Shown piece by piece: positions 1,664 through 50,608 of a stretch of DNA of 64,000 nt (position 1 is its first letter; each line of letters opens with the position of its first letter). The DNA is from an uncultured candidatus Brocadiaceae bacterium. Lineage in GTDB: Bacteria > Planctomycetota > UBA11346. The notes below the pieces were generated by a model. It did not search any database. It was given only the letters and a program-made list of their open reading frames with translations, and was not told where the DNA came from. A program made the translations under genes and the position numbers. The stretch lies in contig CAZZAM010000003.1 in NCBI GenBank assembly GCA_964652775.1, forward strand, positions 26,633-90,632, in the 5' to 3' direction.

Positions 1664-2020
1664 ATGAAGACACCCATGCCACCACGACGTTACGCCATGG
1701 TGATCGGCCTGCACATCGAGCGCGTCGCTGTTTATAAACAACTCCATGCTGCGGTTTGGCCAGCAGTTCAGACCATGATCACGGCGTGTGGAATCCGTAA
1801 CTATTCGATTCACCTGCGCCAGCTTCCCGATGGAAAACACTACTTATTCAGCTATTTCGAATACGTCGGAACCGACTTCGCCGCCGACATGGCCACGATG
1901 GCGGCTGATCCGACAACCCAGGAGTGGTGGGCGCTCTGCATCCCATGTCAGAACCCGCTCGCCGATCGGTCACCAGGCGAGTGGTGGGCCAGCATGGAAG
2001 AGGTCTATTACCAGGCGTAG
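1664..2020 (+). CDS. rhaM: L-rhamnose mutarotase
   Basis: RYAMVIGL...YKQLHAAVWP...GIRNYSI...LFSYFEY...MAADPTTQEWW...WWASMEEVY match the RhaM family. Confidence 0.85.
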   Translation: MKTPMPPRRYAMVIGLHIERVAVYKQLHAAVWPAVQTMITACGIRNYSIHLRQLPDGKHYLFSYFEYVGTDFAADMATMAADPTTQEWWALCIPCQNPLADRSPGEWWASMEEVYYQA

Positions 2021-2440
2021 GGCAATCTGGATGCGATCTCCTCGTCAGACTCCAAGAAATTACCAGACCAGTGCAGTAAGCAGGTCCGTAGGCTGTCCAG
2101 GGTATACGGCCGAGAGCCGCCGATCATCACTGACCATTTTCTGCGTCAGTGCCGAGGCCATCCCTGGCCCGGCAACATTCGCCAACTGGAATCCGTTATC
2201 GCTGCGTTAGTCGCCAACAGTGGCCGACTGACCATGACTGGAAATGCAGACCGTATAAAAACGCCACTGCCATCTCCGGCTAAACTGGTCTTGCCCGACC
2301 CTCTGCCAACCCTCGACCAGATGCGCGACGTTATGATAGCGGAAGCATTGCGACGCTCGTCCGGCAACCTGAGCGCTGCCAGTAGCATACTTGGCATCAG
2401 TCGATGGGGACTCAGTAAACGGTTGAAGAACCTTCAATAA
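2021..2440 (+). pseudogene. C-terminal fragment of a sigma54-dependent activator (end of AAA+ domain plus Fis-type HTH)
   Basis: Frame is open from 2021: ...HPWPGNIRQLESVI...TLDQMRDVMIAEALRRSSGNLSAASSILGISRWGLSKRLK. No Walker A or GAFTGA. First ATG is at 2234; CTG at 2027. Confidence 0.65.
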
Positions 2441-2670
2441 TCTCTATTGCAGCATTTTGGTATCCGACGGTGATACCAATTAAACTCAACACATCCCGGT
2501 AAGCCCATCCTGCTGTGCGACATCGATCATGCTCTACCCAGGTTCGCCATCCTCGCCTGAAGGACCACTACCACCTACGCCATACGACACCTGAATCTCA
2601 TAGATCAAGACACCTTGACTCCCGACAACGTCACAGATGGACAGGTCCATTCAGGACTCTAGCATCAGGC

Positions 2671-3696
2671 ATGTATTTCCGTCGCTCTGCAGTATGGACC
2701 TGGTTTATCCTGCTTTTCTGCCAAGTCCTGCTGGGAAGTGAAACCACGGTCAGTCCAACCAGTCCTGCAGTGACCATTGAGCTCCAAGCTCGCCGCGCCG
2801 TGGCTGAACACCTCGACCATCTGCCCGGTCAAGAGGAGACACTGGCAATCGACCGAGTCGATGCCTGGCTCCAGCTCGCGGCTAGATGCCAACTTGAAAA
2901 ACATAGAGACGAGGCCAAGGCAGCGCTCACTACTGCTTGCGCGCGTTGGGCGACGATGCTCGAACGCCATCCGCAAAGCTTCGACTGGCAGCCGAACGTG
3001 CTAGCCATGGATACCTGTCGGCCCCTACTCGAAGATTTGCCCAAGGAGGCCGTCGAAATGTTGGGGCGCGAACTGCGACTCGGTGAGGCGCGCTTCGGAG
3101 AAATATCGGTCGAGAGGCTGCGTAAATTGCAGGAGCTCATCGCCCGACCAGAGTCTGCTGGTTACCGGTTCGGCCCACCTCTGCGCCTGTGGACTCGCCA
3201 GATTACCATCGCCGGCGATGAACGGGGCGAACAGATTCTGCCACTGCCCGGGAACGAACTGCCCAGTGGATGCGCCCTGGTTGGGATGCGCATCATGTAT
3301 CGCGGTGTGAGTGTGGGTCTAAATCTGGTTCAGGTCAAAGTGACGCAGCGTATCCAGGCCGGCCAGGCCTGGAATTTGGAGGCCGCAAATCCGCGCGGGT
3401 TCGACCGGGGCGTGAACCAGATCCTCGCCTTACGTCGGCTCGGCCAGGAGGGTCTAGGACTAGCCGTCAGGTTAAACCCGCGGCCACCAGTGGGCACTGA
3501 ACTCACCCTCTGCGTCTACCTGGCAGGCGCCCAGCCGGAGATTGGAACAACTTCGCTGAGCGGACTGATCGAATCAGCCCTCGCCGCCGGACCCGCCGGT
3601 GCAGCCGGTATTCTGTCTGGGGCGGACGCACAGGGACTTCGCCGGTATCCGCGGTTCGCAAGTATCGCCAAGCTGCTGACCGAGGGGAAGCCGTGA
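2671..3696 (+). CDS. Secreted hypothetical protein (gene 1 of HEAT/caspase operon)
   Basis: ATG at 2671 gives the signal-like MYFRRSAVWTWFILLFCQVLLG. Its stop overlaps the next start (GTGA). Confidence 0.7.
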   Translation: MYFRRSAVWTWFILLFCQVLLGSETTVSPTSPAVTIELQARRAVAEHLDHLPGQEETLAIDRVDAWLQLAARCQLEKHRDEAKAALTTACARWATMLERHPQSFDWQPNVLAMDTCRPLLEDLPKEAVEMLGRELRLGEARFGEISVERLRKLQELIARPESAGYRFGPPLRLWTRQITIAGDERGEQILPLPGNELPSGCALVGMRIMYRGVSVGLNLVQVKVTQRIQAGQAWNLEAANPRGFDRGVNQILALRRLGQEGLGLAVRLNPRPPVGTELTLCVYLAGAQPEIGTTSLSGLIESALAAGPAGAAGILSGADAQGLRRYPRFASIAKLLTEGKP

Positions 3697-5771
3697 GAAT
3701 CCTACTGCCTCTTCTGGCTACAACCATGCTAGCCGCCCTGGATCAACGGGTGGAACCGGAGCTACGTCATCATCTTGATAGTCCGCGTGAGTGGGAACGC
3801 CAACACGCCATCGACTGGGCGGCTGGCACCGGCGATTCCGCGATCGCCGTTACGGCGTTGACGCTGCTGGCAACGAAGCCGGATCTGTACGTCGACTTCA
3901 ATTCCATGCGCAAACTCGCCGATGCCGTCCCGAGCGAGACGGCCATCAGTTTGGCTTCGACAGCACCGGCCTGGTTACTGCCTCATCTCATGCGCCGACT
4001 GGCTGGCCAAGGATCGGTCGCCAGCCTGACCCAGGCCCGCGCATGGCGCACGGCCGGCCGGGCCGACCTAGCTCGATTGCTGGCACTAGCAGCCCTGCCA
4101 GCAGTGCCAGCGGGCAATCCCGCACAGGGCGAATTGCTCGATCTGGTGCTGGGCATGCGCGACCCCGATCAGGCCGCTGACGCGATCTCCAGAATACCAT
4201 CAGCATCCTGGGATCGTTCTCTGGCTAGTATGCTGCTGGCCTACAACCAGGAGCGGATCCGCCAGACGGCGATGTCTGCTCTCGTCCGCTCGTACCGAGA
4301 CGCCGATCGCACACCGGAATGGGTCGAGGGCCTGCTCGCCGAACTGGCCACCACCAGTCCGCACCCCAGGATCCGGCTGGAAGCGGTGCAGGCGCTGCGC
4401 TTGGAGTTGCCGCGCCGAGGCCGCGAGACACTCAAAAATCTGTTTCCGACAATGATGCAGGACACGGAAGCTCCGATCAGGGCCGCGGCCTGCATGATTG
4501 CTGCGATTCTTCAGCAATCTCCGGGCGATGAACCGTTGGAGCGTTTGCTCGCCGATGCGCAGGCAGCGGTGCGACACGAGGCCGTGCGCCTGCTCGAAAA
4601 GATCGACACTACACCTGGGCCCGAGCACCTGCTCCGCCTGATCGATGACCCGGATAAGGGCGTGCGCCATGAATTATTCCGGTTGATTCAAATACGGCGA
4701 ATCATACCCACGCCCGCTGCCGCCAGTGCCGTGCTGGCGCGAGCGAAGCAAGGCCTGGACGCAGAAGAGTTGAGCGCCGTCATCATGCTTGATCCTGCAG
4801 CTGGCCTCGCTCTGGCGGCGGAACTCTGCGTCGATGAAAAAAAATCTGCTCCCGTGCGAGTCCGCGCATTTGCGGCACTTCAGGCAGGCAAGTACGAGCG
4901 TGCGGCGGCACTCGCGCAACGCTGCCTCACCGATGCCGATGCGACAGTGCGTTCCATCGCTCGCCGCGTGGCCGCAAAACCATCCGCCACCCAGAACAAC
5001 GGTGACGACCAAGTCGACCCTACGCCCGACGTCGACGACCTCGTGCAGCGCTTCAACGCCGGAGACGCCACCCAACGCCGCGAGCTGTTCGCATCACTCC
5101 AGAAAGAGCCGCAGCTGACTCTGGCACCCATGGTGCTTATCCGTCTCGCCACCAGCAACGACCTATCGCTGGCTCGCGAGGCGGTGCAACGCCTTCCTGC
5201 ATCCAGCCAGTTCTCCATTGGGTCAAACACGTCGGCTTGCCTCGCCGCGCTCAAACTACTCGACAGCCCGGATGGCACCCTGGCGGCCTGGGCGAGCAAA
5301 TGCCTTGCCAGTCTGCCTTATCGGACCTGGCACTCTCAGGACACGCGCATGCCGTTAGACGCCGAGGCCCCTGCCGACCAACTTATTCGCACACTGAGTT
5401 ATCAGCACAATCCGGAGGAAGCCGCCGCTATCACGCTGTTACTTGTCCATCCCAATCGCGCAGTTCGATTTGGGGCCAGAAAGGCCCTCGCTCAACTCGG
5501 ATATCCGCATCCTGCGGTGGCGGACTTCGTGATCGCCGAGATGTTGTCTCAAGCTAAGCCGCGCAATATGCGTTATTTCAACATGCCGTGTCCTTTGCTT
5601 CTTCAGCGGTTGCCAGCCTTCGCCAGCACGTGCTCTCCGGAAGACCTGCAAGCAGTGCGTGCCTGTATCGAGAAGCTGGCTATCGACACGAATAAGACAT
5701 ATGACGCCGACGGCAAAGGGTGGCAGAGATTTCTCACTCAGGTTGCTATCATTAACGAATCCAAGCCATGA
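3693..5771 (+). CDS. Secreted HEAT-repeat (alpha-solenoid) protein
   Basis: Signal-like MRILLPLLATTMLAA; repeated HEAT motifs (PHPRIRLEAVQAL, EAPIRAAAC, QAAVRHEAVRLL, DPDKGVRHEL, DADATVRSIA, NRAVRFGARKAL). Confidence 0.8.
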   Translation: MRILLPLLATTMLAALDQRVEPELRHHLDSPREWERQHAIDWAAGTGDSAIAVTALTLLATKPDLYVDFNSMRKLADAVPSETAISLASTAPAWLLPHLMRRLAGQGSVASLTQARAWRTAGRADLARLLALAALPAVPAGNPAQGELLDLVLGMRDPDQAADAISRIPSASWDRSLASMLLAYNQERIRQTAMSALVRSYRDADRTPEWVEGLLAELATTSPHPRIRLEAVQALRLELPRRGRETLKNLFPTMMQDTEAPIRAAACMIAAILQQSPGDEPLERLLADAQAAVRHEAVRLLEKIDTTPGPEHLLRLIDDPDKGVRHELFRLIQIRRIIPTPAAASAVLARAKQGLDAEELSAVIMLDPAAGLALAAELCVDEKKSAPVRVRAFAALQAGKYERAAALAQRCLTDADATVRSIARRVAAKPSATQNNGDDQVDPTPDVDDLVQRFNAGDATQRRELFASLQKEPQLTLAPMVLIRLATSNDLSLAREAVQRLPASSQFSIGSNTSACLAALKLLDSPDGTLAAWASKCLASLPYRTWHSQDTRMPLDAEAPADQLIRTLSYQHNPEEAAAITLLLVHPNRAVRFGARKALAQLGYPHPAVADFVIAEMLSQAKPRNMRYFNMPCPLLLQRLPAFASTCSPEDLQAVRACIEKLAIDTNKTYDADGKGWQRFLTQVAIINESKP

Positions 5772-8668
5772 TACGCAGCTTAATCCTCGCAACTCTCGGC
5801 CTGGGCCTCGTCGCCGGCGAAGGGCACATCATTGCCACGCCGTCCCTCGACGAGATCAAGAAGGACACCCGCAGCTTCGATACAAACATACGACACAGGG
5901 CACAGGGCCTGCTGTTCTATCTAGAACCAAACGAGCTCGCCGAAATCCGCCAATCCTTCGACAAATTCGGCGGGGTGATGGATGGCTGGCCACCGCTGAT
6001 GGCAGCCGAGATCTGCGCCGGCATGAAGGCGGCGCTGGCCGATGCTCCGAATCACATTGACAGTTTGATGCCGCTGCTGAGCAACCGCGAGCTTGCGCCG
6101 GTGTGCGACGCCGTGACCACCGAACTGCAAAGGCGCTTGGCGAAGGACAAGAGGTTGCAAGGAGGCACCTGGACCGCACTCGCTGCGCGTACCAGTCACG
6201 CCGGACTAACCAAGCTGGTGTTCGCAGCCCTCATCGCCAATCCCAACATGGAGGCTTATCCGCAACCGGCCGCCACATGGATTCCGCTGCTGGAGTCGCT
6301 GCCACCTGCCACCGATATGCCGACCCGAGTGCGCATGCTCCAGCGCGCTAAGCCGGGATTCGCGCAACCTCCGCCCGCCTGCTTGGCCGGCTTGCTGCAC
6401 GACCACGAACCACAGATACGCCGGGCCGCCGCTAATTTACTCAGCGGATCAAGCGAACCCACGGTGCTCAAGCTCGCCAATGAACTTGCTAGCGACGCTG
6501 ATCCCGGTGTTCGCCAGGCTGCCGCCAATAGCATCATCACCTTCCGGCCACAGCCGCCGGCCGAGGCACTCTCTGCGATGTGCGAGGATCCACGCTGGGA
6601 AGCCTGGCACCGGGCCAACGCCTGGACGCAGCGGTTCCAACGGCCAGGCAAAGATCTGATCGAGGCGAGCAAGCGACAGTTCGTCAAAAAGGATTGCGAG
6701 CCGTTCGTGCTGCAGGCGATTGCTGGCGGCCTAGCGAATGCAGGCGAGCAGAGTTGGGTGATTGAGCGCATCACGGGCCTGGATCCAACCGTGCAAGCCA
6801 GCGTGCTACTGCGGCTGTTGTCACATGCCGACAATCGCGTACTCGACGCTGTGCAGGTCGTCATCGTGCACGGCAAAGAACCCGAGGCTGCACGTATGGT
6901 GTCCGGGTTGGCCTCGGCAACCAAAGAGATCGACGTGTTCCCCCTGCTGCTACGCTGCTTGAGCGACAAGCGCAGCGGGGTGCGGATGGCGGCACAACGA
7001 ACCATTGAACAACGAGCCAGCCGGCCAACACCTCGAGCGACGGACCAGGGTAAGGACGCCGTCAAGCCTGACGCCGAAGCCGAACGCATCGCCGCCGTGT
7101 GGCGAAACTGGTACACAACGCATCGCGCCCCACTCGACGCTGCCGGCGAACTGGCCTTGGCCGCCGCTGCGCGCGGCGACCAGTCGGCTCCTCTGCCGGC
7201 AGTGCTGCGCTGGCTCGGCCGCGATGGTGAGGCAGGAGTGCAGGCAATGCAGACCTTGCTCGCTAGCCCCCTGGCTCAGGACGAACGTGTGTGGCTGGCG
7301 CTTCTGCGCGATCCGCAATTTGCGCAGCGTAGCAACGAGATTTCAGTTGGCCTAGCTGACTGCACTCCAAGTCCCGCTCTGCAACAGGCGGTGCTGGACC
7401 GGCTTGCTGGTGGCGAAACCACCTTTGTAGAAACCGCATGCGCCTGGCGCAGTGAATTCATGGCTGCACGATTAACCGAGTTGGTCGTGATCAAAGGCGT
7501 CGGCTGGTACGCAGCCAAGGCCGAATTGGCCGCCTGGTGGCCACAGCAGATTGACACGACGGTGCGCAACACCTTGGCCATACCCGGACCGAAACAACCG
7601 CGCCCTCCGTATGATGTGCTCCAGCGCGCAGTTGCCCTCGTCGTGCTGCGGGCGGAACTGAATAAAGACGCTGCCTCTATAGCCCCGCTGTTTTTACGGA
7701 CGGACATCGATCAATCCCAACTCATGCCGAGCATCGTTCTGCTGGCCGGGCGTGGTGACGCCACGGCGTCCGGAATCTTGGTTAAGGCCATATCGGCCAA
7801 GGCGCAGCCAGTGGCAACCAACGCCGCACTGCAGGGTCTGCTGCGTCAGACTGCCGAAGGCAGAGAACTCCCGACAGGGACACGCGACCAGATCCGACGT
7901 CTAGCCGTGGCCGGCAACAACGAGGTCACTGCCGAGGCGCGAGCAATGGCCATCGCGTTGCTCGCGGCTATAGGCGATCCGACTGCCCCAGATCTCGTAC
8001 ACAAAAACGCCATCGGCGAAGCCTGGGCGACGATCTCTCAGCCGCTGCTGTCAGTCCCGGTGAAGGCCGCTTTACCATCAGTGCGCGAGCTGCTTGCTTT
8101 GGCTCCCAATCAGATGTTCGAGAATCGCTGCAGCGAATGGATCGAGCGCTATGCGCAGCTCAGCCTCTCCGAGCGGAACAAGCTACACTGGCAATCGCAA
8201 GCGGCGCGGCTGGAAGCAGCGGACAAGCTGCGCGGCAAGCCAGTCGATGGTTTATCCGCCGCAATCGTCACCAGTGGGGACCTACATCCGGAACGCGACG
8301 GCACCGCCAAAATCACCATCACGTTGACCAACCACCGCCGCGAAATTTTCGTTCTCACATCGACCACACTGCAAGTAAGCATGGAGCTGGAAGGCTACAA
8401 CGAACACAGCGTCTTTGTTACAACCCAACCAATCGGCACAACCGCACCGATCCGCATCGCCCCAAATGGCGTCGTTCGCCTGCCCGCAGTCATCCCCCAC
8501 TTTCCGGATATCCCAGCCGCTGCTCGCGCCAGTTTTACCATCAACGTCGCCACTGGGTTGAACAGTAGCAACACGACCATGATCGCCAGACTGCCGACCG
8601 AGTGGATCCCAGTAGACCTCATGAATCCGGCGATGCGCATGGTCGAGACCAATGCCGGACTCCGCTGA
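5768..8668 (+). CDS. Secreted HEAT-repeat protein with a C-terminal beta-rich domain
   Basis: Signal-like MIRSLILATLGLGLVAG; HEAT motifs (DHEPQIRRAAANLL, DADPGVRQAAANSI, DKRSGVRMAA); C-terminal strand-rich segment (KITITLTN...); ATGA overlap with the upstream gene. Confidence 0.8.
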   Translation: MIRSLILATLGLGLVAGEGHIIATPSLDEIKKDTRSFDTNIRHRAQGLLFYLEPNELAEIRQSFDKFGGVMDGWPPLMAAEICAGMKAALADAPNHIDSLMPLLSNRELAPVCDAVTTELQRRLAKDKRLQGGTWTALAARTSHAGLTKLVFAALIANPNMEAYPQPAATWIPLLESLPPATDMPTRVRMLQRAKPGFAQPPPACLAGLLHDHEPQIRRAAANLLSGSSEPTVLKLANELASDADPGVRQAAANSIITFRPQPPAEALSAMCEDPRWEAWHRANAWTQRFQRPGKDLIEASKRQFVKKDCEPFVLQAIAGGLANAGEQSWVIERITGLDPTVQASVLLRLLSHADNRVLDAVQVVIVHGKEPEAARMVSGLASATKEIDVFPLLLRCLSDKRSGVRMAAQRTIEQRASRPTPRATDQGKDAVKPDAEAERIAAVWRNWYTTHRAPLDAAGELALAAAARGDQSAPLPAVLRWLGRDGEAGVQAMQTLLASPLAQDERVWLALLRDPQFAQRSNEISVGLADCTPSPALQQAVLDRLAGGETTFVETACAWRSEFMAARLTELVVIKGVGWYAAKAELAAWWPQQIDTTVRNTLAIPGPKQPRPPYDVLQRAVALVVLRAELNKDAASIAPLFLRTDIDQSQLMPSIVLLAGRGDATASGILVKAISAKAQPVATNAALQGLLRQTAEGRELPTGTRDQIRRLAVAGNNEVTAEARAMAIALLAAIGDPTAPDLVHKNAIGEAWATISQPLLSVPVKAALPSVRELLALAPNQMFENRCSEWIERYAQLSLSERNKLHWQSQAARLEAADKLRGKPVDGLSAAIVTSGDLHPERDGTAKITITLTNHRREIFVLTSTTLQVSMELEGYNEHSVFVTTQPIGTTAPIRIAPNGVVRLPAVIPHFPDIPAAARASFTINVATGLNSSNTTMIARLPTEWIPVDLMNPAMRMVETNAGLR

Positions 8669-11600
8669 TGACTGACAGAAGGACATGGCTGGGCTGGGTT
8701 ATCGTTGCGATCATCGGCATCGCGTTGATCAGCTTGGGTACGATGCTGATCAACGCTACGGCACGGAAGCCAACCGATGCCGCCACGAACGACCATCCTA
8801 CCCAGCCTGCACCGACGCAGTCGCGGATAGCCAACACGGTCAACAACGACAGAACGCCTGCAGCGATAGCCACCGTCAAACTCGGCCAACAGGCATCCCA
8901 CGCGGATGCACTCGCCATGACCACCGCCGACTTGCAGGGTGCCGACCATCCGCCGCTGTCAGGTCTGCGCCTCGTCGTCCCCGATCCCGTCGATAGCATT
9001 CCCAACGATCTGCGCTTCAGTCTGGATGGCAGTAGGCTCGCGATCTTCACCTATACCAGCGCCTACATCTACGAGTCATCCTCGGGCCGACAACTCTATC
9101 ACATACCTCGGCCCGGCAGTCACGGACGCTTCACTGCGGTCGACGCGAAATTCGAGCGCTTCATCTTTGGCAATCCGGCCATGATTGGCGTCTGCACCCG
9201 CAAAGGGGAGATCGTCTGGCAGTGTGCGGTGGAGAAACCGATCACCCGCATCAGCGGGGCCGGACCACCGAATTCAGCAATCTCCGACGATGGTCTGCGC
9301 GTTGCCTATCAGGACGGAATTGATGTCATCCTAGTGGATCTCAAGGATGGAACGAAGACCCCAGGTCCCAATCTCATGGGCAGCCTGGCATTCGTCGGCA
9401 ACGATCATCTCGTCGGCCTCCCATTCACTGAGGGAGACGGATGGATTTGGAAAATCGCCGACAAGACTGCGGTACCAGTGAGATCGCAAGGCGTCAGCAG
9501 CAATGCTCATATCATCGTCACACCTAGCCGCGACCGCTTTGCCTGGATCACCAGGGAGGGCCGTCTGGTTATCGCCGACATCGCCGGCAACAAGCTGGGA
9601 GATCCGCTGGGCGTCAGTATGCCCGACGGTTCGCCGTGGAAATTGAAGGGAGCCACTTTCGCAGACGACGGTTCGCTGGTCGTGATAGCGCTGCCAAGCC
9701 GGGCGCCTTCTCTGCCGAATGGTTTGAGTCGCATCGTCGATCTGCACGACTTTCTGGCCTCGCAGATGGAACAGGTTTGGCGAGTCCCCCTCGCCACCGA
9801 TGAAAAGCCATTCCGACTGACAACCATTCCCGGTAGCCAGACTTCCGATCTCGGTCGCAGCATTTCTTCCTTACCAGTCCAGAACTTCCTACCATTAGCA
9901 GCCGACACCGTCAGTGACCGCCTCATCATCGGATCGGGACTGCTCCCCCTGCTTCAAATGAGCAACGGCGCCGTGATCAACAATCTGATTGAACGTCGCT
10001 CTGCCTCTGTCGACTCCGATGTTTTGAACAACGGCGTCTTCAGAATCTATCCAGACCAGAATGCCCGACCAACGGTCAGCGCTGACGGTCGCTGGATCCT
10101 ACATCAACGCTGGCGCAAGCTCGACATCTGGGATTTGTGGTCAGGCATTCCATGCCGCATCCAAGCGAATTCAGGCCAGATACATTTCAATACCGGTGCG
10201 GTCAGCATGGATACAACCAACGCGGCAACTCTACACTTTCTCGATTCGACTCTGCCGATCGACTTAACCAACTCAACAACGGCGATCATCAATCCCACGT
10301 CCTTGGTCTCTCGGGAAGATGCCAGCGCTGTTGTCATGGCCGGAACCAGCCATGGAACCCGGCTATTAGCTGGATCTAACCAAAGTGGCGAAGTCTTCAT
10401 TCAAGACCTGCCCGGACGAAGCCGCCATCCTTTGCCGTGGCGCTTTCGGACACCTGCGAGTCAGAAAGAAACCCGCACCCTTGTGGATGCCGCTCTATCG
10501 GCCGACGGTTCGTTGGTCGCACTCGCCTATATAGATCGCTCACTCACATCTATGGAATCAGCCCATCCGCGCGGCCTCATCTTGTATGCCTGCGAACAGC
10601 AGGCTGAGCTAGCCGTGGTACTGGAACCTACCGTCCGTCCCACGTGCGTCAGCTTCGCTCCGGTGGGAAGAATGCTCGCCATCGGCGAAGAAGATGGCGC
10701 CGTCTCTCTGGTAACGCCACAAAACCGCGTCGTCCGCTGGCGCGTGGACAGCGCGTCCATTTCAGGGATCGCTTGGTCTGGCGATGGCACACGCCTAGCT
10801 GTCACCACGCGGAACGGTCGCCTTTTCGAGCTGGAACTGTCGACGCAAGTGGTTCGGCGTGTTGCCGTCGAGGTGGGATCCGCGATGGCCTGCGCGTGGC
10901 TTCCTGACCGCCGGGTGCTGACCTGGTCTCAGCACGGCAGCCTGTCCATTCTGCCACTCGACGGCGGACCGTGCATCTCGTTCGGCTACGACCAAGTCAA
11001 AAACCGCTGGCTCTGCTCCTCCAACACCGGCATCTGGGATGGTTCAAAGAATTGTACCAGCATGTTCGATCTCGACTGGAATGGCGTGATGTTCGCGGGC
11101 GACGTCCTGGCCCCGTGGACGAACCGCCCTGACCTCCTTCTGCGTATTCTGCGCTCTCCAGCAGAGAGTGACATCGCACGCCTCCACCGACGAGTCGAGC
11201 AACGCGCCAAACAATGCGCTGCCAATCTTGCCCAGCCACCCGACCTCGCATCTCTTCCGGGAAGCGTCATCACCAATTGTGTGGTGCAGAACGACCGTGC
11301 CGTGATGACACTGCATCGGCCAGTACAGGCGCGCCTATTCCAAGCCTATGCCAACGGTGTTCCGGTATTTTCTGGCGCCGGACTGCCCGTGCCAGCCGGC
11401 GATGCAGACATCTCTTTCCCAATCTCCCTACAACGGGGCGGCAACCGAATTGAGACTGCCTTCCTTGACCAATACGGCCGTAGTGGATCGCGGGCCTCGG
11501 CCTTTGTCACTGGATATGGGGACACGCACAGCGACCTCCACATCTTGGCGATCGGCGTATCGCGCTATCGGGATTCCCGGCTCGATCTTGGATGCGCCGC

Positions 11601-13647
11601 CAAGGATGCGGTGGACTTCGCCAAGGAATGGCAGCGGTTTCTCAACCAACCATTCCGGACGATTCACTCAACCGTCCTGCTCGACCAGGACGTGACCTTG
11701 GACAACATCCGCCAGGCGAGCAGGAAACTAGGGAAGGCCGCGCCCAACGACGTCTGCCTTCTCTTCGTGGCCGGGCATGGCACGCACGACGAGAACGGAG
11801 TTTTCCGCTTCCTGCCGCACGGTACGCAGATCGACGACATCGCGGGATCAACCATCTCCTTCCAAGAAATCGATGCCGTGCTTGGCCGCTGCGGCAGTCG
11901 CCGGCGCTTCGCTTTCATCGACACCTGCGAAAGCGGACTGCTCGATCCAGATGAAGCTCCTCCCGGACTGTTGAGCATGGCCAGTGCCCGAGGATTGCGC
12001 TGCCGCGGCCTGCGCCCGGTGACGCCAGCCGACCCTCGACCGCCCATGCCCAAGCCAGTGGACACGTCGCCATCTCCATCGGTCTCAATCGCGACTCCAA
12101 CCCAAGAGACACCAGCGGTCTTACGACGCCTGCCGCCCACCCCGAGTCGCCCCCGACGCGCCGATCGCCAACGCTATCTCTACAATGACCTTTCTCTCGG
12201 TTCCGGCGCATCCATCCTCAGCGCGGCAAGCGGCAGCCAATATTCCTACGAAAGTGATCAACTTGGGAACGGATTCTTCACTGCTGCGGTGATCAAAATG
12301 CTGCGAGGTGATAAACCCACCAACGCCACGCCAGAACAAAAAATGGTCGGACTCTCCTCCAGCGACCGTTCACGGACCATCACTTGGAACAGCCTATGCG
12401 CTGATGTCGCCATGGAGGTCGATGATCAGACCGGAGGATTGCAGAGCCCGAGCCTCGACCGCTACAATCCGTATGCCAACTTCACGCTGCGGATGGAGGC
12501 AAAAGATCTGCGCCCGGATGTGCGGATAGGAACAGGAGTGATGCGTTCAGATGTCCCGATGAGTGTACCGATCGCCAACATTTCTGCCGAGGAGCTTGCG
12601 GCAGGGCGCGCTCTCGCACCGTCCTTCCTCGTTCTGGCCAAGGCCCTTGCCCGCGATCGCCAGTTCGACTGCCATGCATTCAATCTGTCAGCCCGCGAAA
12701 CCCGCAAGCTGGCACGACCGTTGACCAGCCGACTGACCGACACCCTGGAAACGCGCCTGACCGCTCTGCTCGGCAAACCCATCCTGTCGATCGACAAGAC
12801 CGAGCGCATCGACCGACGTGAAGCCGATCCGGCCTGCGCCGAGGCAATTCGACTGCTCAACAGAATGGCGGATGCCTTGGCCGGAAACGTTCCGTGGGAG
12901 ACAGCTCTGGGAGATCGTTCGATCGAACCAGTTTATGTCTCCTTTCTGCTGACTTCCGGCGACCGCATCGAAGGTCTTTACGATCCGGTGCTCCGCCTCC
13001 TCGAACCAAGCTCGTTGCGCTTCGATCTCACCGGCATGCAGATTCGCATCGAACCCGAAGACGTCGATACCTGCACCCGGAAGCCAGGCATCCCAACCAG
13101 AGTTACCAGTGCTAAGCCACCAGGACCACCACCCGTCTCCACGCCTCTTCCTCTTCCCCTACCCGGAATCGCCGGCGCGGATTCAGCCCGCTTTCATTTG
13201 GGCGAGTGGCGTGGAATCCAAAATAACCAGGGTTGGGATGCCGCTGTCATGGGGCGTGCTCCATCCGAATCATTGCTGCTGGAGACCGGCCCTGGTCAGG
13301 CCGAGAAATGCTGCGCGAAGGCCAAGGTTACCGGCGCATTTAGTAGCATCGTCCTGAAACTGCGCGTGATCGCGGGCGGAGGCGGCCAGATCGCACTCGC
13401 CATTGCCGAGGGTAATGCCTCCAACATGCAGGAGAGCCATCTCGTCGCGCTCGACAAGGAGACCGTCGAGACCACCTTCGACCTACGTGGCATCGGCTGG
13501 AAGAGCAAGGCCAGCAACTGGCAATTCGGCAATCAGCCGAGATCAACCGCCATATCCGTGGTGTATCTGCTGCTCTACCGCGGCTCAGCCCCGACCAAAG
13601 TCGAAGTAATGGAACTCCGTGGAATCCCGGATACGGGCAGGCCCTGA
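8668..13647 (+). CDS. Membrane-anchored WD40-repeat + caspase-like (peptidase C14) protein with C-terminal extensions
   Basis: TGATG overlap gives the start at 8668. N-terminal TM (LGWVIVAIIGIALISLGTMLI); WD40-like blades (FSLDGSRLA, LSADGSLVA, FAPVGRMLAIGEEDGAVSL, WSGDGTRLA). Caspase motifs LHILAIGVSRY, FVAGHG (His codon 11776), FIDTCESG (Cys codon 11926), SAASGSQYSYE...NGFFT. Confidence 0.88.
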   Translation: MTDRRTWLGWVIVAIIGIALISLGTMLINATARKPTDAATNDHPTQPAPTQSRIANTVNNDRTPAAIATVKLGQQASHADALAMTTADLQGADHPPLSGLRLVVPDPVDSIPNDLRFSLDGSRLAIFTYTSAYIYESSSGRQLYHIPRPGSHGRFTAVDAKFERFIFGNPAMIGVCTRKGEIVWQCAVEKPITRISGAGPPNSAISDDGLRVAYQDGIDVILVDLKDGTKTPGPNLMGSLAFVGNDHLVGLPFTEGDGWIWKIADKTAVPVRSQGVSSNAHIIVTPSRDRFAWITREGRLVIADIAGNKLGDPLGVSMPDGSPWKLKGATFADDGSLVVIALPSRAPSLPNGLSRIVDLHDFLASQMEQVWRVPLATDEKPFRLTTIPGSQTSDLGRSISSLPVQNFLPLAADTVSDRLIIGSGLLPLLQMSNGAVINNLIERRSASVDSDVLNNGVFRIYPDQNARPTVSADGRWILHQRWRKLDIWDLWSGIPCRIQANSGQIHFNTGAVSMDTTNAATLHFLDSTLPIDLTNSTTAIINPTSLVSREDASAVVMAGTSHGTRLLAGSNQSGEVFIQDLPGRSRHPLPWRFRTPASQKETRTLVDAALSADGSLVALAYIDRSLTSMESAHPRGLILYACEQQAELAVVLEPTVRPTCVSFAPVGRMLAIGEEDGAVSLVTPQNRVVRWRVDSASISGIAWSGDGTRLAVTTRNGRLFELELSTQVVRRVAVEVGSAMACAWLPDRRVLTWSQHGSLSILPLDGGPCISFGYDQVKNRWLCSSNTGIWDGSKNCTSMFDLDWNGVMFAGDVLAPWTNRPDLLLRILRSPAESDIARLHRRVEQRAKQCAANLAQPPDLASLPGSVITNCVVQNDRAVMTLHRPVQARLFQAYANGVPVFSGAGLPVPAGDADISFPISLQRGGNRIETAFLDQYGRSGSRASAFVTGYGDTHSDLHILAIGVSRYRDSRLDLGCAAKDAVDFAKEWQRFLNQPFRTIHSTVLLDQDVTLDNIRQASRKLGKAAPNDVCLLFVAGHGTHDENGVFRFLPHGTQIDDIAGSTISFQEIDAVLGRCGSRRRFAFIDTCESGLLDPDEAPPGLLSMASARGLRCRGLRPVTPADPRPPMPKPVDTSPSPSVSIATPTQETPAVLRRLPPTPSRPRRADRQRYLYNDLSLGSGASILSAASGSQYSYESDQLGNGFFTAAVIKMLRGDKPTNATPEQKMVGLSSSDRSRTITWNSLCADVAMEVDDQTGGLQSPSLDRYNPYANFTLRMEAKDLRPDVRIGTGVMRSDVPMSVPIANISAEELAAGRALAPSFLVLAKALARDRQFDCHAFNLSARETRKLARPLTSRLTDTLETRLTALLGKPILSIDKTERIDRREADPACAEAIRLLNRMADALAGNVPWETALGDRSIEPVYVSFLLTSGDRIEGLYDPVLRLLEPSSLRFDLTGMQIRIEPEDVDTCTRKPGIPTRVTSAKPPGPPPVSTPLPLPLPGIAGADSARFHLGEWRGIQNNQGWDAAVMGRAPSESLLLETGPGQAEKCCAKAKVTGAFSSIVLKLRVIAGGGGQIALAIAEGNASNMQESHLVALDKETVETTFDLRGIGWKSKASNWQFGNQPRSTAISVVYLLLYRGSAPTKVEVMELRGIPDTGRP

Positions 13648-13820
13648 CAAAGAGTCCAATAACACGGCCCATGGGGCGTATTTAATCCTCCAACCGGTCA
13701 CACTGGCGTCTTGGTGGGCCAATCTGGGTGTGCTCAGTATGGAAATGCAAGACGAAAAAAGCATAAAAATCCCTGGCGTATTTGCGTTTCCCAATGAACC
13801 GGCACACGGGAAATCCAAAT

Positions 13821-13841
13821 TGGTACTCCCAAGGGGATTCG
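13821..13841 (-). repeat. 21-bp direct copy of the tRNA-Glu 3' end (att-like)
   Basis: tggtactcccaaggggattcg is identical at 13821-13841 and 14082-14102. Confidence 0.9.
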
Positions 13842-14031
13842 TCCAGCCTCGGGCAAGCCCTCGGCGTCGCTCGGCGCCGACGCCATGCCCATGGCGTCGC
13901 GTCCGCTACGCGGATGCCCTCGCTCCCCTCGCGAGGTACCGCCGCGACGGCTGTAGCAGGCCACAGGGTGGCGTGCGGCCGAGCGACCGGGCGAGCCTGC
14001 GAGCCTGCGAGCACGCAGGGTGGAAATCCTC

Positions 14032-14090
14032 GGAGTACCAAACGCAGAAAAGCTGGCCGCGACGGCCAGCTTTTCTGCGTTTGGTACTCC
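14032..14090 (-). terminator. Perfect 28-bp hairpin downstream of, and overlapping, the tRNA-Glu 3' end
   Basis: ggagtaccaaacgcagaaaagctggccg (14032-14059), loop cga, exact reverse complement at 14063-14090. The terminator role is inferred. Confidence 0.7.
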
Positions 14091-14157
14091 CAAGGGGATT
14101 CGAACCCCTGTCGCCGGAATGAAAATCCGGTATCCTAGGCCTCTAGATGATGGGAGC
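14082..14157 (-). tRNA. tRNA-Glu (TTC)
   Basis: GCTCCCA...CCGGA-TTTTCAT-TCCGG...GGTTCGAATCC...TGGGAGTACCA; 76 nt, encoded CCA. Confidence 0.95.
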
Positions 14158-14206
14158 CTGCGGGGCGGGGAAGATCCACATTCTGCTGCCAAGAGCAAGT
14201 GTCCAA

Positions 14207-15898
14207 TTATGTCGCCGCTGGTGAACCAGATTGGGTTGGGCTCAATGTCGGCAGACTCCCGATGTGGAGGGTTTGTGTGGGGTAAGCAAACGAAATGCCG
14301 CGATCCCGCGCCAGCTGCATAATCTGGATCAAGACGGCTTGACGGTTCGCGAGTTCATCGTTCCAGGTTGCCACCTTGAGGTGGTAATTGACGAGGATCT
14401 CCAACGACGAGGCAGCCATGGCGGTGAAAGCAACGGTAATCGCGTCCTGTTTGACTGCTGGATTCGCCTGCAGGATAGTTCGGATGCCGTGGCAGAAGGT
14501 TTCGACCTGGGCCGGGCTGGTGGCGCAGTCGAGGCCCAGCACTTCACGCGCACGGCGGAAGTCGCGACCGCCCATGTTGTCGATGTTGGCCAATACCAGT
14601 TCGCAGTTTGGAATCGACAACAGCGAGTTGTGCGGAGTCCGAATACGGGTGCTACGAAAGCCGATCTCCTCCACCGATCCTTCGACACCCTTAGCTAAAA
14701 TATAGTCACCGATGCGGAAAGGACGATCAATCATGATCATCACCGAGCCCAATAGGTTCGCGAGCGTGTCCTTGGCCGCGAGCGCGAATGCCAAACCGCC
14801 GATGCCCAGACCGGCGATAAGACTGGCCACATCCATGCCCATATTCTGCGCCCCCAGCAAGAGACAGAACAGCAATGCGAGAATCTGCAGACTCTGGCGA
14901 ATCAAACGAAACAGGCCGTTATTCAGGTCTTTCTGCCGCTCACGCATGATCCGTTCAAACTGGAGTCCGACAAAGCCGGCGATGCGATAGGCCAGATAAC
15001 CCAAGCTGACGAAGAACGCCGTCTTGATCAGGAATGCTATGACTATGTAAGCAGTTCCAGCAATTCCCAATAGATGCAGGGACGCAAACCAAACACCGGT
15101 CGTCGCGAGATAGGTTGCTGGGCTGGTCAGCACCTCAACCAGTTCATCATCCCAGGTCGCCGAGGTACGTGCAGTCAGACGTTTGATTAAAAAACCAATG
15201 AATCGCGTCACCTGACGCAGGACGATTCCGACAAAGATCAGCAATCCGAGCAATAACCACTGCCAATAAGCGACGCCGACAATTTGCTGTTTGAGATTAT
15301 CTGGAACATATCGCTCATCCCATGATGGCTCCAAGCCTCCTCCGACCGAACCAGCCAATAGCGGCAGATGTTTCACCCGAGCAAAGAAGCCCCGAGCGCG
15401 TTGCACTGAGTCTGCTGAGATGGTGTATTCCCCTTTGCGCTCGCCATTATCAATACGCAGCACGGTTATCTCGGTGCTACGCAAACGCCAGCGCTGCAAA
15501 GTCGCCTCATTGGGAACCTTGGAATAATCGATGGTAATGACGCGATCGATGACTTCCTTGAGTGCGATGGCTGAATCTCGTGCCGCAATATCACGATCAA
15601 CCATCGGCAAGGATGAGCAGTCCAAACAACGCACGGCATCATCCAGCCACGTCGCCGCCAATCGCGCGTCAGTCTGACGTGCAGCTACGTAATGGTCCAT
15701 CGCATCCATGAACGACTTCAGAGTATCGCGCGGCGAGTCGGTCTTCACCGGAGCCAGCGGTGAATCTAACGACGATGGCGGTGTCGCAGTGGATACCGGA
15801 GTCGAATCGGTCGCTGGCAGCGAATCGCTCGCCCAACCAACGTAAGCAAAAAGGAACAGCAAAAACAGGCGTAGCATCATGGGCGGCACAATGGCCAT
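14207..15898 (-). CDS. mscS: MscS-family mechanosensitive channel with periplasmic N-terminal domain
   Basis: SLIAGLGIGGLAFALAAKDTLANLLGSVMIMIDRPFRIGD...GSVEEIGFRSTRIRT...IPN...ISFAYPTQT. Start at 15898 or 15880 rather than 16072. Confidence 0.9.
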   Translation of the reverse strand: MAIVPPMMLRLFLLFLFAYVGWASDSLPATDSTPVSTATPPSSLDSPLAPVKTDSPRDTLKSFMDAMDHYVAARQTDARLAATWLDDAVRCLDCSSLPMVDRDIAARDSAIALKEVIDRVITIDYSKVPNEATLQRWRLRSTEITVLRIDNGERKGEYTISADSVQRARGFFARVKHLPLLAGSVGGGLEPSWDERYVPDNLKQQIVGVAYWQWLLLGLLIFVGIVLRQVTRFIGFLIKRLTARTSATWDDELVEVLTSPATYLATTGVWFASLHLLGIAGTAYIVIAFLIKTAFFVSLGYLAYRIAGFVGLQFERIMRERQKDLNNGLFRLIRQSLQILALLFCLLLGAQNMGMDVASLIAGLGIGGLAFALAAKDTLANLLGSVMIMIDRPFRIGDYILAKGVEGSVEEIGFRSTRIRTPHNSLLSIPNCELVLANIDNMGGRDFRRAREVLGLDCATSPAQVETFCHGIRTILQANPAVKQDAITVAFTAMAASSLEILVNYHLKVATWNDELANRQAVLIQIMQLARDRGISFAYPTQTLHIGSLPTLSPTQSGSPAAT

Positions 15899-49650: not shown

Positions 49651-49727
49651 CTGCGAGGACTCCTGCACCAACATATGTCCTCAGCATGGACACCTGGCCG
49701 GATCTTTCAGTCTTGTCACCCAAACTG

Positions 49728-50438: not shown

Positions 50439-50467
50439 GGCAGCCTCCGTGCTGACCAAGCTGACGG

Positions 50468-50494
50468 TTATCAGCCTTGGCGACGGTAGGATAT
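50468..50494 (-). promoter_or_regulatory. Possible sigma28-like promoter
   Basis: -10 GCTGATAA (7/8 match to GCCGATAA) at 50475-50468; the -35 position 15 bp upstream reads ATAT (poor match to TAAA). Confidence 0.3.
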
Positions 50495-50608
50495 GCCCGC
50501 TCGAGAACGGTTACAAGCAGCATCGGTAAAACCCGCACCGACTTGAGTCCTTCGTCTCAGCCTGGCGCCGGACAGGTGGTCGTTTGCAACCATCTACTGA
50601 ACCAGTTG

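What the first reader, a model, noticed from the sequence alone, without database searches (positions are those of the whole stretch)
2671..13647. Four-gene exported operon: two HEAT solenoids plus a membrane-anchored WD40 caspase-like protease
Seen: four genes joined by GTGA, ATGA and TGATG overlaps. The first three have signal-like N-termini. The fourth has an N-terminal TM, WD40-like blades and a C14 domain with an intact His (GHG, 11776) / Cys (DTC, 11926) dyad. Established: WD40 + C14 proteins occur in bacteria, many caspase-like systems act in immunity or signalling, and characterised defence caspases are cytoplasmic. Inference: an extracytoplasmic proteolytic switch in which the HEAT proteins are scaffolds, inhibitors or substrates. 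Beta-propeller plus alpha-solenoid in one operon also recalls planctomycete membrane-coat-like architecture split across genes (speculative). The operon ends beside a duplicated tRNA-Glu 3' end, hinting at acquisition.
Basis: partly seen in the sequence, partly recalled or inferred. Interest (0 to 1): 0.75.

Follow-up and report, generated by a model that had tools for sequence, protein, structure and literature searches.

The report
Exported HEAT pair plus anchored caspase
A groundwater planctomycete has a one-off operon that joins a conserved pair of exported HEAT-repeat proteins to a membrane-anchored, outward-facing caspase-like protease; each part is of a known kind, but the combination is unique and its function is untested.

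Summary
Four intact genes (2671-13647, + strand) are joined by GTGA, ATGA and TGATG overlaps. All four start with export-type hydrophobic N-termini. g2 and g3 are HEAT solenoids.

Extracytoplasmic location is supported: distant WD40-C14 relatives of g4 almost all carry classic signal peptides. g2/g3 belong to a small conserved HEAT-A/HEAT-B pair, fused into one protein in one relative. Five other loci encode this pair next to CsgG/LpoB-like proteins, a TPR protein and Ser/Thr kinases, and never next to a caspase. The g4 relatives examined stand alone or have other partners.

The window therefore holds a remodelled, lineage-specific version of an undescribed planctomycete envelope operon. Its downstream CsgG-like slot is occupied by an anchored caspase.

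There is no defence-system match, no membrane-coat architecture and no sign of recent acquisition. The tRNA-Glu repeat pair spans only 261 bp, and the operon lies outside it. Function remains inferred. Moderate interest.

The parts
2021..2440 (+). Truncated remnant of a sigma-54 enhancer-binding protein. Only its C-terminal end remains ('HPWPGNIRQLESVI' plus a Fis-type HTH). The only ORF with a start codon is 2234-2440 (68 aa). It marks a rearrangement scar directly upstream of the operon.
   Evidence: The frame stays open from the rhaM stop codon, with no start codon until 2234. HTH_8 scores 33.3 bits.
2638..2665 (+). The only sigma-70-like hexamer pair in 2000-14400 (TGGACA-16-TAGCAT). It ends 6 nt before the g1 ATG, so a leaderless transcript is possible. 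Weak evidence.
   Evidence: 1 site found against 3.4 expected in shuffles, so not significant in itself.
2671..3696 (+). g1: 341 aa, signal-like N-terminus, helical N-terminal half and beta-rich C-terminal half. No Pfam, NCBIfam or PADLOC hit. Its residues 28-116 weakly resemble the central TPR-like segment of the long CsgG-like proteins of the related operons.
   Evidence: CsgG-long HMM: 15.7 bits, reached by 0 of 2000 shuffles, and the best of 217 window ORFs.
3693..5771 (+). g2: 692 aa, exported HEAT-repeat protein of the HEAT-A family. It lacks the C-terminal beta domain present in some HEAT-A proteins.
   Evidence: HEAT_2 50.6 bits. A HEAT-A HMM built without g2 gives E 7.7e-41 over g2 residues 7-663, matching HMM positions 11-690 of 883. 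30% identity to the L006 orthologue.
5768..8668 (+). g3: 966 aa, exported HEAT solenoid of the HEAT-B family (about 45 helices, residues 27-821) with a C-terminal beta-sandwich (about 829-941).
   Evidence: HEAT-B HMM E 5e-122 over the full length; pLDDT 79.6; importin-beta-like fold.
8668..13647 (+). g4: 1659 aa, membrane-anchored multidomain C14 protease. Order: TM anchor, Pro/Thr-rich tether, probable tandem beta-propeller, helical linker, Ig-like domain, caspase domain, 390-aa C-terminal extension.
8683..8751 (+). g4 residues 6-28: signal-anchor or long signal peptide (MTDRR-TWLGWVIVAIIGIALISLGTMLI-NATA/RK). The basic N-flank predicts N-in, C-out topology.
   Evidence: Kyte-Doolittle profile. 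Relatives carry cleavable signal peptides.
9007..11097 (+). g4 residues 114-810: all-beta region, probably two WD40-type propellers (about 13-14 blades). Only residues 635-751 are detected by Pfam.
   Evidence: (pLDDT mostly 30-70). (tandem-propeller matches, E about 1e-17).
11266..11517 (+). g4 residues 867-950: Ig-like beta-sandwich just before the caspase domain, shared with relatives.
   Evidence: pLDDT about 70. Alignments to P0002-P0006 start upstream of the caspase domain.
11530..12492 (+). g4 residues 955-1275: Peptidase C14 domain. His1037 is codon 11776-11778 and Cys1087 is codon 11926-11928. An 83-residue Pro/Arg-rich disordered insert (about residues 1096-1178, nt 11953-12201) lies between the p20-like and p10-like halves.
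   Evidence: (profile hits 3bij GSU0716 at E 7e-10, and metacaspases). (pLDDT 80-94 outside the insert).
12493..13644 (+). g4 residues 1276-1659: C-terminal extension absent from all relatives found. Its last domain (residues 1488-1651, nt 13129-13620) resembles the C-terminal domain of one HEAT-A protein (L007).
   Evidence: relatives end with the caspase domain. (28% identity over 174-178 aa, Smith-Waterman z 11.8, the only significant hit among 217 window ORFs at E 3e-4; a 2-sequence HMM gives only E 0.23, and phmmer does not report the match).
13820..13841 (-). Exact 22-nt copy of the 3' end of tRNA-Glu, 173 bp after the g4 stop codon.
14082..14157 (-). tRNA-Glu(ttc). Its last 10 nt are part of a perfect 28-nt inverted repeat (14032-14059 and 14063-14090).

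Best explanation
The four genes form one operon that encodes an envelope-located (periplasm-facing) protein set in a groundwater Planctomycetota bacterium.

g2 and g3 are the HEAT-A and HEAT-B members of a small conserved pair of signal-peptide-bearing, importin-like solenoids. They most likely act together as one scaffold, because one relative encodes them as a single fused protein. In other planctomycete-type contigs this pair is always encoded with CsgG/LpoB-like proteins and a TPR protein. A Fis-type HTH protein and transmembrane Ser/Thr kinases with periplasmic CsgG-like or FGE-sulfatase domains usually accompany them.

In this genome that operon has been remodelled. The CsgG-like and TPR genes are gone; g1 may be a remnant of the long CsgG-like gene. 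The slot after HEAT-B is filled by g4, a protease held in the inner membrane by an N-terminal anchor. Its tandem propeller, Ig-like domain, intact C14 caspase domain and extra C-terminal domain face outward.

Shown here: gene order and overlaps, family memberships, the intact catalytic dyad, export-type N-termini and the lack of conservation of the HEAT-caspase link.

Inferred: g4 is made as a zymogen and is activated by cleavage in its 83-residue Arg/Pro-rich inter-subunit linker. It docks on the HEAT-A/B scaffold, possibly through the C-terminal domain it shares with some HEAT-A proteins. It then cleaves envelope proteins, giving a proteolytic output where relatives have kinase signalling. 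It is not a cytoplasmic cell-suicide or anti-phage caspase.
For: - Overlapping genes with no internal + strand terminator-like site other than one weak hit, and an ordinary coding signature.
- Signal-like N-termini on all four proteins, conserved in orthologues.
- g4 relatives P0002-P0011 nearly all have classic signal peptides and the same propeller, Ig-like, caspase order.
- C14 scores above its Pfam cut-off, with an invariant His/Cys dyad and a confident fold.
- HEAT-A and HEAT-B HMMs built without the window proteins hit g2 (E 7.7e-41) and g3 (E 5e-122). The two are fused in L011.
- Operon context is conserved in L006-L011.
- g3 is a long solenoid.
- g4's C-terminal domain resembles the L007 HEAT-A C-terminal domain.
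- g1 resembles the central segment of the long CsgG-like proteins.
- A truncated regulator gene lies upstream, a sign of local rearrangement.
- The flanking genes are housekeeping genes: rhaM, URO-D-like, MscS, ppk, ppx, ROK.
- Published surveys show WD40 as the commonest partner domain of prokaryotic C14 proteins and N-terminal TM/signal plus C14 as a frequent architecture (PMC3501461).
Against: - The HEAT-caspase adjacency is seen only in this one organism. The only other copies are 100% identical fragments of the same MAG, so co-evolution cannot be shown.
- No relative of either partner reproduces the link.
- Export is predicted from simple hydrophobicity rules and homologue N-termini, not from SignalP or experiment. 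The public gene call for g2 lacks the signal.
- The two cross-family domain similarities (g4 C-terminus to HEAT-A C-terminus; g1 to the long CsgG-like proteins) are weak. The g1 similarity lies in a TPR-like helix pair, which could be generic.
- The propeller model has low confidence.
- No transcript data exist; only DNA runs were found.
- Protease activity, its substrates and any HEAT interaction are untested.
Confidence: 0.5

Rival explanations
1. Neighbours without a shared job. g4 is an independent, self-sufficient exported WD40-caspase, as most of its relatives are. It landed behind a decaying HEAT-A/HEAT-B operon during a local rearrangement. Co-transcription is incidental and the HEAT proteins are neither its partners nor its substrates.
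For: - Relatives of g4 stand alone (P0004, with more than 1 kb of upstream spacer; P0002) or have unrelated partners (P0003).
- Relatives of g2/g3 never have a caspase next to them.
- The locus has lost the CsgG-like and TPR genes and carries a truncated regulator gene at its upstream edge.
- The combination is a singleton in 5.8 billion protein clusters.
Against: - The 1-nt TGATG overlap between g3 and g4 suggests translational coupling, like the other junctions.
- All four products are addressed to the same compartment.
- g4 carries an extra C-terminal domain, absent from other WD40-caspases, that resembles the C-terminal domain of a HEAT-A protein.
Confidence: 0.3
2. A cytoplasmic caspase-based defence or programmed-death system, of the kind found with gasdermin-associated proteases, CHAT proteases or STAND NTPases. 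The repeat proteins would be the sensors.
For: - The PADLOC 'caspase' model hits g4 at E 4.9e-11, and the NCBIfam 'caspase, EACC1-associated type' model hits part of it.
- HEAT and WD40 repeats are typical sensor modules of such systems (general knowledge; a NACHT-HEAT-metacaspase fusion is noted in PMC3501461).
Against: - All four proteins carry export or anchor signals.
- There is no NTPase, gasdermin, EACC1 or other effector gene.
- The PADLOC hits for g2 and g3 are noise (12.4 and 10 bits).
- The NCBIfam score of 53.4 is far below its cut-off of 140.
- The neighbours are housekeeping genes, not a defence island.
Confidence: 0.05
3. A horizontally acquired island integrated at tRNA-Glu carries the operon.
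For: - An exact 22-nt direct repeat of the tRNA 3' end lies 173 bp after g4.
- In metagenome contigs the sequence left of 13841 varies.
- g1-g3 have very few relatives.
Against: - The two repeat copies are only 261 bp apart and enclose a 239-bp GC-rich spacer, not the operon. No third copy exists in the 64 kb window, even allowing up to 3 mismatches.
- Tetranucleotide profile and GC3 of the operon are within the window's range; only one 5-kb bin reaches z 2.1.
- No integrase was found among the flanking genes scanned.
- The HEAT pair is native to planctomycete-type contigs.
Confidence: 0.1
4. A membrane-coat-like (protocoatomer-type) system split across genes: the g4 propeller plus the g2/g3 solenoids.
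For: A beta-propeller and alpha-solenoids are encoded in one planctomycete operon.
Against: - The defining architecture is an N-terminal propeller followed by a stacked-helix domain in one polypeptide, strictly in that order (PMC2799638). Here the solenoids are separate proteins encoded upstream, and the propeller is followed by a protease.
- The solenoid pair is conserved without any propeller partner.
- The fold matches of g3 are karyopherin and CAND1 types, not coat proteins.
Confidence: 0.03

Closest known systems
Prokaryotic multidomain C14 proteases (orthocaspases / bacterial metacaspase-like proteins) with WD40 repeats and N-terminal signal or TM segments (survey: Asplund-Samuelsson et al. 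2012, PMC3501461); solved relative GSU0716 (PDB 3bij)
   Same: - C14 domain with a His/Cys dyad.
- WD40-type propeller as partner domain.
- N-terminal export or anchor segment.
- The closest sequences, P0002-P0011, share the order propeller, Ig-like domain, caspase.
   Different: - At most 29% identity to any relative.
- A non-cleaved-looking 23-residue anchor instead of a short signal peptide.
- An 83-residue Pro/Arg-rich insert in the caspase domain.
- A 390-aa C-terminal extension that no relative has.
- Encoded in an operon with a HEAT pair.
Undescribed planctomycete operon found here in L006-L011: Fis-type HTH protein / Ser-Thr kinase with CsgG-like domain / long CsgG-like protein / CsgG-like+TPR protein / HEAT-A / HEAT-B / short CsgG-like protein
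   Same: - HEAT-A (g2) and HEAT-B (g3) are present in the same order with a 4-nt overlap.
- Both carry signal peptides.
- A Fis-type HTH gene fragment lies just upstream.
- g1 is a possible remnant of the long CsgG-like gene.
   Different: - The window has no CsgG-like domain, no TPR protein and no adjacent kinase.
- The slot after HEAT-B holds the anchored caspase.
- The upstream HTH fragment is of the sigma-54 activator type, not the roughly 200-aa family.
Characterised bacterial caspase-like defence proteases (gasdermin-activating proteases, CHAT/Craspase, STAND-linked caspases)
   Same: Clan CD protease fused to or encoded with repeat-domain modules (own knowledge; PADLOC caspase model hit).
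   Different: Those are cytoplasmic and come with NTPase, CRISPR or pore-forming partners. Here the products are exported or anchored, no such partner is present and no system is called.
Planctomycete membrane-coat-like proteins (Santarella-Mellwig et al. 2010, PMC2799638)
   Same: Both a beta-propeller and an alpha-solenoid are present, in the same phylum.
   Different: The two folds are not in one chain, are not in the propeller-then-solenoid order, and the propeller protein is a protease.
Karyopherin-beta / CAND1-type HEAT superhelices
   Same: The predicted fold of g3 is about 20 HEAT repeats forming a long cargo-wrapping solenoid.
   Different: No sequence relationship (10-14% identity, TM-score about 0.2). 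g3 is bacterial and exported, and carries a C-terminal beta domain.

Membership tests
Peptidase C14 (caspase/metacaspase/orthocaspase, clan CD) | Match to the family profile above the curated threshold | tested here: met
   PF00656 scores 38.4 bits against a cut-off of 21.4, over residues 960-1264. A family profile hits GSU0716 (3bij, E 7e-10) and metacaspases.
Peptidase C14 (caspase/metacaspase/orthocaspase, clan CD) | Catalytic His and Cys in their conserved motifs | tested here: met
   His1037 (AGHG) and Cys1087 (DTCESG) are invariant in the 10-sequence alignment.
Peptidase C14 (caspase/metacaspase/orthocaspase, clan CD) | Peptidase activity and autoprocessing | not testable with these tools
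   Needs the purified protein, the C1087A control and peptide substrates.
Exported WD40-C14 proteins (informal group P0002-P0011) | N-terminal export signal, then propeller, Ig-like domain and caspase in that order | tested here: met
   The g4 N-terminus is an anchor-like 23-residue hydrophobic segment rather than a short cleavable peptide.
Exported WD40-C14 proteins (informal group P0002-P0011) | Protein ends with the caspase domain | tested here: not met
   g4 continues for about 390 residues that no relative has.
HEAT-A/HEAT-B envelope operon (L006-L011) | Adjacent HEAT-A then HEAT-B genes, each matching its family profile over most of its length | tested here: met
   g2 E 7.7e-41 and g3 E 5e-122 against HMMs built from the other loci. 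Same order and overlapping junction.
HEAT-A/HEAT-B envelope operon (L006-L011) | Co-encoded CsgG/LpoB-like proteins and a CsgG-like+TPR protein | tested here: not met
   No CsgG-like ORF anywhere in the 64 kb window. g1 does not match the TPR-family HMM. There is only a weak g1 match to the non-CsgG part of the long CsgG-like family.
HEAT-A/HEAT-B envelope operon (L006-L011) | Adjacent transmembrane Ser/Thr kinase | tested here: not met
   The nearest kinase gene is at 34544-35887, about 20 kb away.
Known anti-phage defence systems (PADLOC-DB 2.0) | Significant matches to the component set of one system | tested here: not met
   Only a generic caspase model hits (E 4.9e-11). The g2 and g3 hits are noise and g1 has none.
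EACC1-associated caspase (NCBIfam NF047832) | Score above the curated cut-off | tested here: not met
   53.4 bits against a cut-off of 140, covering the p20-like half only.
Membrane-coat-like proteins (PVC superphylum) | N-terminal beta-propeller followed by a C-terminal stacked-helix solenoid in one polypeptide | tested here: not met
   The g4 propeller is followed by an Ig-like domain and a caspase. The solenoids are separate upstream genes. Definition taken from PMC2799638.
tRNA-integrated genomic island | Direct repeats of the tRNA 3' end that bracket the genes | tested here: not met
   The repeats at 13820-13841 and 14081-14102 bracket only 239 bp. The operon ends at 13647, and there is no third copy in the window.
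tRNA-integrated genomic island | Atypical composition and an integrase gene | tested here: not met
   Composition is within the window's range. The flanking genes scanned are housekeeping genes. The remainder of the genome was not available.

The most novel reading that the evidence does not exclude
An extracytoplasmic, scaffold-activated caspase. In this reading the conserved periplasmic HEAT-A/HEAT-B superhelix of planctomycetes is a sensing or assembly platform for the cell envelope. In this lineage its usual kinase and CsgG-like partners have been swapped for a membrane-tethered tandem-propeller caspase that docks through a domain borrowed from HEAT-A. This would form an 'apoptosome-like' activation platform on the outside of the cytoplasmic membrane, with regulated proteolysis of envelope proteins as its output.
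Probability: 0.12. Interest if true: 0.7.

Novelty: new variant of a known kind. Interest (0 to 1): 0.4.

Why it matters
If the coupling is real, this would be a caspase-family protease working outside the cytoplasm on a dedicated HEAT scaffold. That is a mode of regulation not described for bacterial C14 enzymes, whose studied examples are cytoplasmic.

Independently of the caspase, the work uncovers a conserved planctomycete envelope operon for which no paper was found. It comprises an exported HEAT-A/HEAT-B pair, CsgG/LpoB-like proteins, a TPR protein, Ser/Thr kinases and a Fis-type regulator. Long importin-like solenoids in a bacterial periplasm are unusual, and they give a concrete target for studying the planctomycete envelope.

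Against this, the caspase link is a singleton in one uncultured groundwater genome. It has no expression or biochemical data, so its significance may be nil.

Tried and rejected
- Word-indexed homologue searches for g2 and g3 returned only self fragments. Only the exhaustive search found relatives.
- Two genome-contig scans and two metagenome-contig scans found no related locus. The 7-sequence alignment A3 was too divergent to derive search patterns.
- The 851-aa protein encoded upstream of the P0003 caspase is unrelated to g2 and g3.
- g2 and g3 are not detectably paralogous beyond generic HEAT repeats.
- A single-sequence search of the caspase region against PDB gave nothing. A profile was needed.
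- g1 was compared with the short CsgG-like+TPR proteins (L006 a303, L008 TPR323), the short CsgG-like proteins and the roughly 200-aa HTH proteins: no similarity.
- Fragment-wise Pfam scans of g1, the g4 N-terminal 550 aa, the g4 C-terminal extension, the g3 C-terminal domain and the HEAT-A C-terminal domains gave no family.
- No RNA runs hold the locus. Runs X3 and X4, which I hoped held a diverged relative for a selection test, hold the same organism at low depth.
- Cluster look-up gave no organism names for the relatives.
- Literature searches for CsgG + Planctomycetes + HEAT or kinase found nothing relevant.
- No sigma-54 promoter motif was seen by eye upstream of g1. A Tat signal (RR in the g1 and g4 n-regions) can be neither shown nor excluded with these tools.

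Full report
**What is there**

The + strand between 2671 and 13647 carries four uninterrupted ORFs:
- g1: 2671-3696, 341 aa
- g2: 3693-5771, 692 aa
- g3: 5768-8668, 966 aa
- g4: 8668-13647, 1659 aa

Their junctions are GTGA, ATGA and TGATG. Codon-position GC matches the housekeeping genes of the window. The only + strand terminator-like site inside the block is one weak hit, and overall there are fewer such sites than in shuffled sequence.

The flanks are ordinary chromosome. Upstream lie a URO-D-like gene and rhaM. Downstream lie tRNA-Glu, an MscS-type channel, ppk, ppx, a ROK kinase and pgm. A 100% identical partial protein in NCBI is named 'MAG: caspase family protein [Planctomycetota bacterium]'. 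The DNA is found in groundwater metagenomes.

**Check of the observation**

All four N-termini are export-like. g1-g3 have a short basic n-region followed by 13-16 hydrophobic residues. g4 has MTDRR followed by a 23-residue hydrophobic segment. A crude rule finds such N-termini in 8 of 30 other large ORFs, even when any start within the first 40 codons is allowed. In this block all four occur at the start fixed by the overlap.

The public gene call for g2 starts 11 codons later and lacks the signal. An SD-like GAGGGG lies before GTG 3693, and the L006 orthologue supports the longer form.

HEAT_2 passes its Pfam threshold in g2 and g3. With seven homologues, AlphaFold models g3 at mean pLDDT 79.6. 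The model has about 45 stacked helices (residues 27-821) plus a small, poorly modelled beta domain. Foldseek places it with karyopherin-beta, CAND1 and SF3B1.

In g4, Peptidase_C14 passes its threshold. Both are invariant among ten relatives. A family profile reaches GSU0716 (3bij) and the metacaspases.

WD40 signal in Pfam covers only residues 635-751. A low-confidence model (mean pLDDT 52.8) is all-beta from 114 to 810, with about 54 strands. It continues with a helical linker, an Ig-like sandwich (867-950) and a confident caspase domain (955-1275, pLDDT 80-94) interrupted by a disordered insert. Its best fold matches are tandem WD40 propellers, among them Apaf-1 and a periplasmic Bacteroides sensor.

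The 22-nt duplicate of the tRNA-Glu 3' end is real.

**Where the proteins act**

Ten distant relatives of g4 (at most 29% identity) share the order propeller, Ig-like domain, caspase. Eight start with a clear hydrophobic signal peptide, for example MNQRKIIFSTGLIFTLVALLATSGPVSAQT. The other two N-termini (P0008, P0011) scored weaker but also look signal-like.

Together with the basic N-flank of the g4 anchor, this places the propellers and the catalytic domain outside the cytoplasmic membrane. A published survey already lists WD40 as the commonest partner domain of prokaryotic C14 proteins. It also lists N-terminal TM/signal plus C14 as a common architecture (PMC3501461). An exported WD40-caspase is therefore a known kind, at least bioinformatically.

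g4 differs from the other members in four ways:
- an anchor rather than a short signal peptide
- an 83-residue Pro/Arg-rich insert between the p20-like and p10-like halves
- a 390-residue C-terminal extension
- its operon context

**The key test: is the HEAT-caspase link conserved?**

It is not. Word-indexed searches found nothing for g2 or g3 except self. An exhaustive HMMER search with g3 found a handful of full-length relatives.

Their contigs show a recurring same-strand, overlapping gene set:
- a roughly 200-aa protein with a Fis-type HTH
- often a Ser/Thr kinase fused to a CsgG-like domain
- a roughly 600-aa CsgG-like protein
- a protein with an N-terminal CsgG/LpoB-like domain followed by TPRs
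- a g2-type HEAT protein (HEAT-A)
- a g3-type HEAT protein (HEAT-B)
- a roughly 350-aa CsgG-like protein
- in two loci, a kinase-FGE-sulfatase gene on the opposite strand

Two more relatives, on short contigs without DNA, also have no caspase nearby.

HMMs built only from those loci hit g2 (E 7.7e-41) and g3 (E 5e-122). In L011 HEAT-A and HEAT-B are one 1719-aa protein. L011 is a 468-kb contig that carries PSCyt/PSD1/DUF1501 genes, which I take as planctomycete hallmarks from my own knowledge. The fusion is good evidence that the two proteins work together.

None of these loci has a caspase. Conversely, the g4 relatives examined are stand-alone genes or sit with unrelated partners.

**How the window locus relates to that operon**

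It looks like a remodelled derivative.
- No CsgG-like ORF exists anywhere in the 64 kb.
- g1 is not a member of the TPR family. Its residues 28-116 do give the best score of all 217 window ORFs against the long CsgG-like HMM: 15.7 bits, with no shuffle out of 2000 above 8.4. The matching segment is TPR-like and could be generic.
- g2 lacks the C-terminal beta domain that three HEAT-A proteins have.
- The last domain of g4 (residues 1488-1651) aligns end to end with that domain of the L007 HEAT-A protein: 28% identity, Smith-Waterman z 11.8, and the only significant hit among the window ORFs. A two-sequence HMM gives only E 0.23, and phmmer does not report the match.
- Directly upstream of g1, the frame after the rhaM stop codon encodes only the C-terminal end of a sigma-54 activator ('HPWPGNIRQLESVI' plus HTH_8), with no start codon and no N-terminal part. 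This is a rearrangement scar.

**Most likely mechanism**

Shown: one operon; four products addressed to the envelope; a conserved HEAT-A/HEAT-B pair; a C14 domain with all conserved catalytic features.

Inferred: the pair forms a periplasmic superhelical scaffold. g4 is tethered to the inner membrane by its anchor and Pro/Thr-rich linker. It is made as a zymogen and is activated by cleavage in the Arg-rich inter-subunit linker, as in other orthocaspases (own knowledge). It docks on the scaffold, perhaps through the HEAT-A-like C-terminal domain, and cleaves envelope proteins.

I give this 0.5 overall. The export and family assignments deserve more, and the functional coupling less.

The main rival (0.3) is that g4 is merely a neighbour. 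The defence reading (0.05), the island reading (0.1) and the membrane-coat reading (0.03) are disfavoured by tests:
- Defence: PADLOC gives only a generic caspase hit, and NCBIfam's EACC1-type caspase model scores 53 against a cut-off of 140.
- Island: the tRNA repeats are 261 bp apart and exclude the operon, and the composition is ordinary.
- Membrane coat: that architecture needs a propeller followed by a solenoid in one chain (PMC2799638).

**Novelty and verdict**

The protease is a new, embellished member of a known kind. The HEAT pair belongs to an operon family for which I found no paper. The combination is a singleton.

I rate this a new variant of a known kind, with interest 0.4. It is not low, because exported importin-like solenoids, their undescribed operon family and an outward-facing anchored caspase are all worth a specialist's look.

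Noticed in passing
window 2021-2440 (+): The frame stays open straight after the rhaM stop codon and encodes only the C-terminal end of a sigma-54 enhancer-binding protein ('HPWPGNIRQLESVI' plus a Fis-type HTH). There is no start codon before 2234 and no AAA+ core. It is a truncated gene remnant marking a rearrangement just upstream of the operon.
   Followed up: partly
window 13820-14160: A 22-nt direct repeat of the tRNA-Glu 3' end encloses a 239-bp GC-rich spacer. A perfect 28-nt inverted repeat (14032-14059 / 14063-14090) includes the last 10 nt of the tRNA. In the groundwater runs this stretch has about 2 to 10 times the depth of the operon, and contigs diverge leftwards exactly at 13841. 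The spacer therefore occurs in other contexts or genomes.
   Followed up: partly
L006-L011 (e.g. L007 155-12287; L011 1769-15160): A conserved, apparently undescribed operon: Fis-type HTH protein, Ser/Thr kinase with a CsgG-like domain, long CsgG-like protein, CsgG-like+TPR protein, HEAT-A, HEAT-B and short CsgG-like protein, often next to a kinase-FGE-sulfatase gene. HEAT-A and HEAT-B are fused in L011. The CsgG matches cover only profile positions of about 36-100 of 210, and LpoB also hits, so these may not be curli-type channels.
   Followed up: partly
window 47137-62854 (-): A second block of large orphan genes: a VWA/YfbK-like protein (913 aa) followed by three proteins of 1038-1123 aa with no Pfam hit. 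Next to it is an ECF-type sigma factor fused to a roughly 650-aa C-terminal region.
   Followed up: no
L003-L005 (e.g. L004 3958-14540): The exported WD40-caspase P0003 overlaps an upstream 851-aa protein with no Pfam hit and is followed by an Hcp-like gene. A divergent operon encodes an ECF sigma factor, a zf-HC2 anti-sigma factor and a second C14 protein with DUF4384. This is another envelope-signalling context for exported caspases.
   Followed up: no
window 24383-26521 (+): A single ORF combines an ABC-2 type transporter membrane domain with a C-terminal Rce1-like CAAX protease domain.
   Followed up: no
window 2671-2690 and 8668-8690: Both g1 (MYFRRS...) and g4 (MTDRRTW...) have twin arginines just before the hydrophobic core. 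Tat rather than Sec export cannot be excluded with the tools at hand.
   Followed up: no
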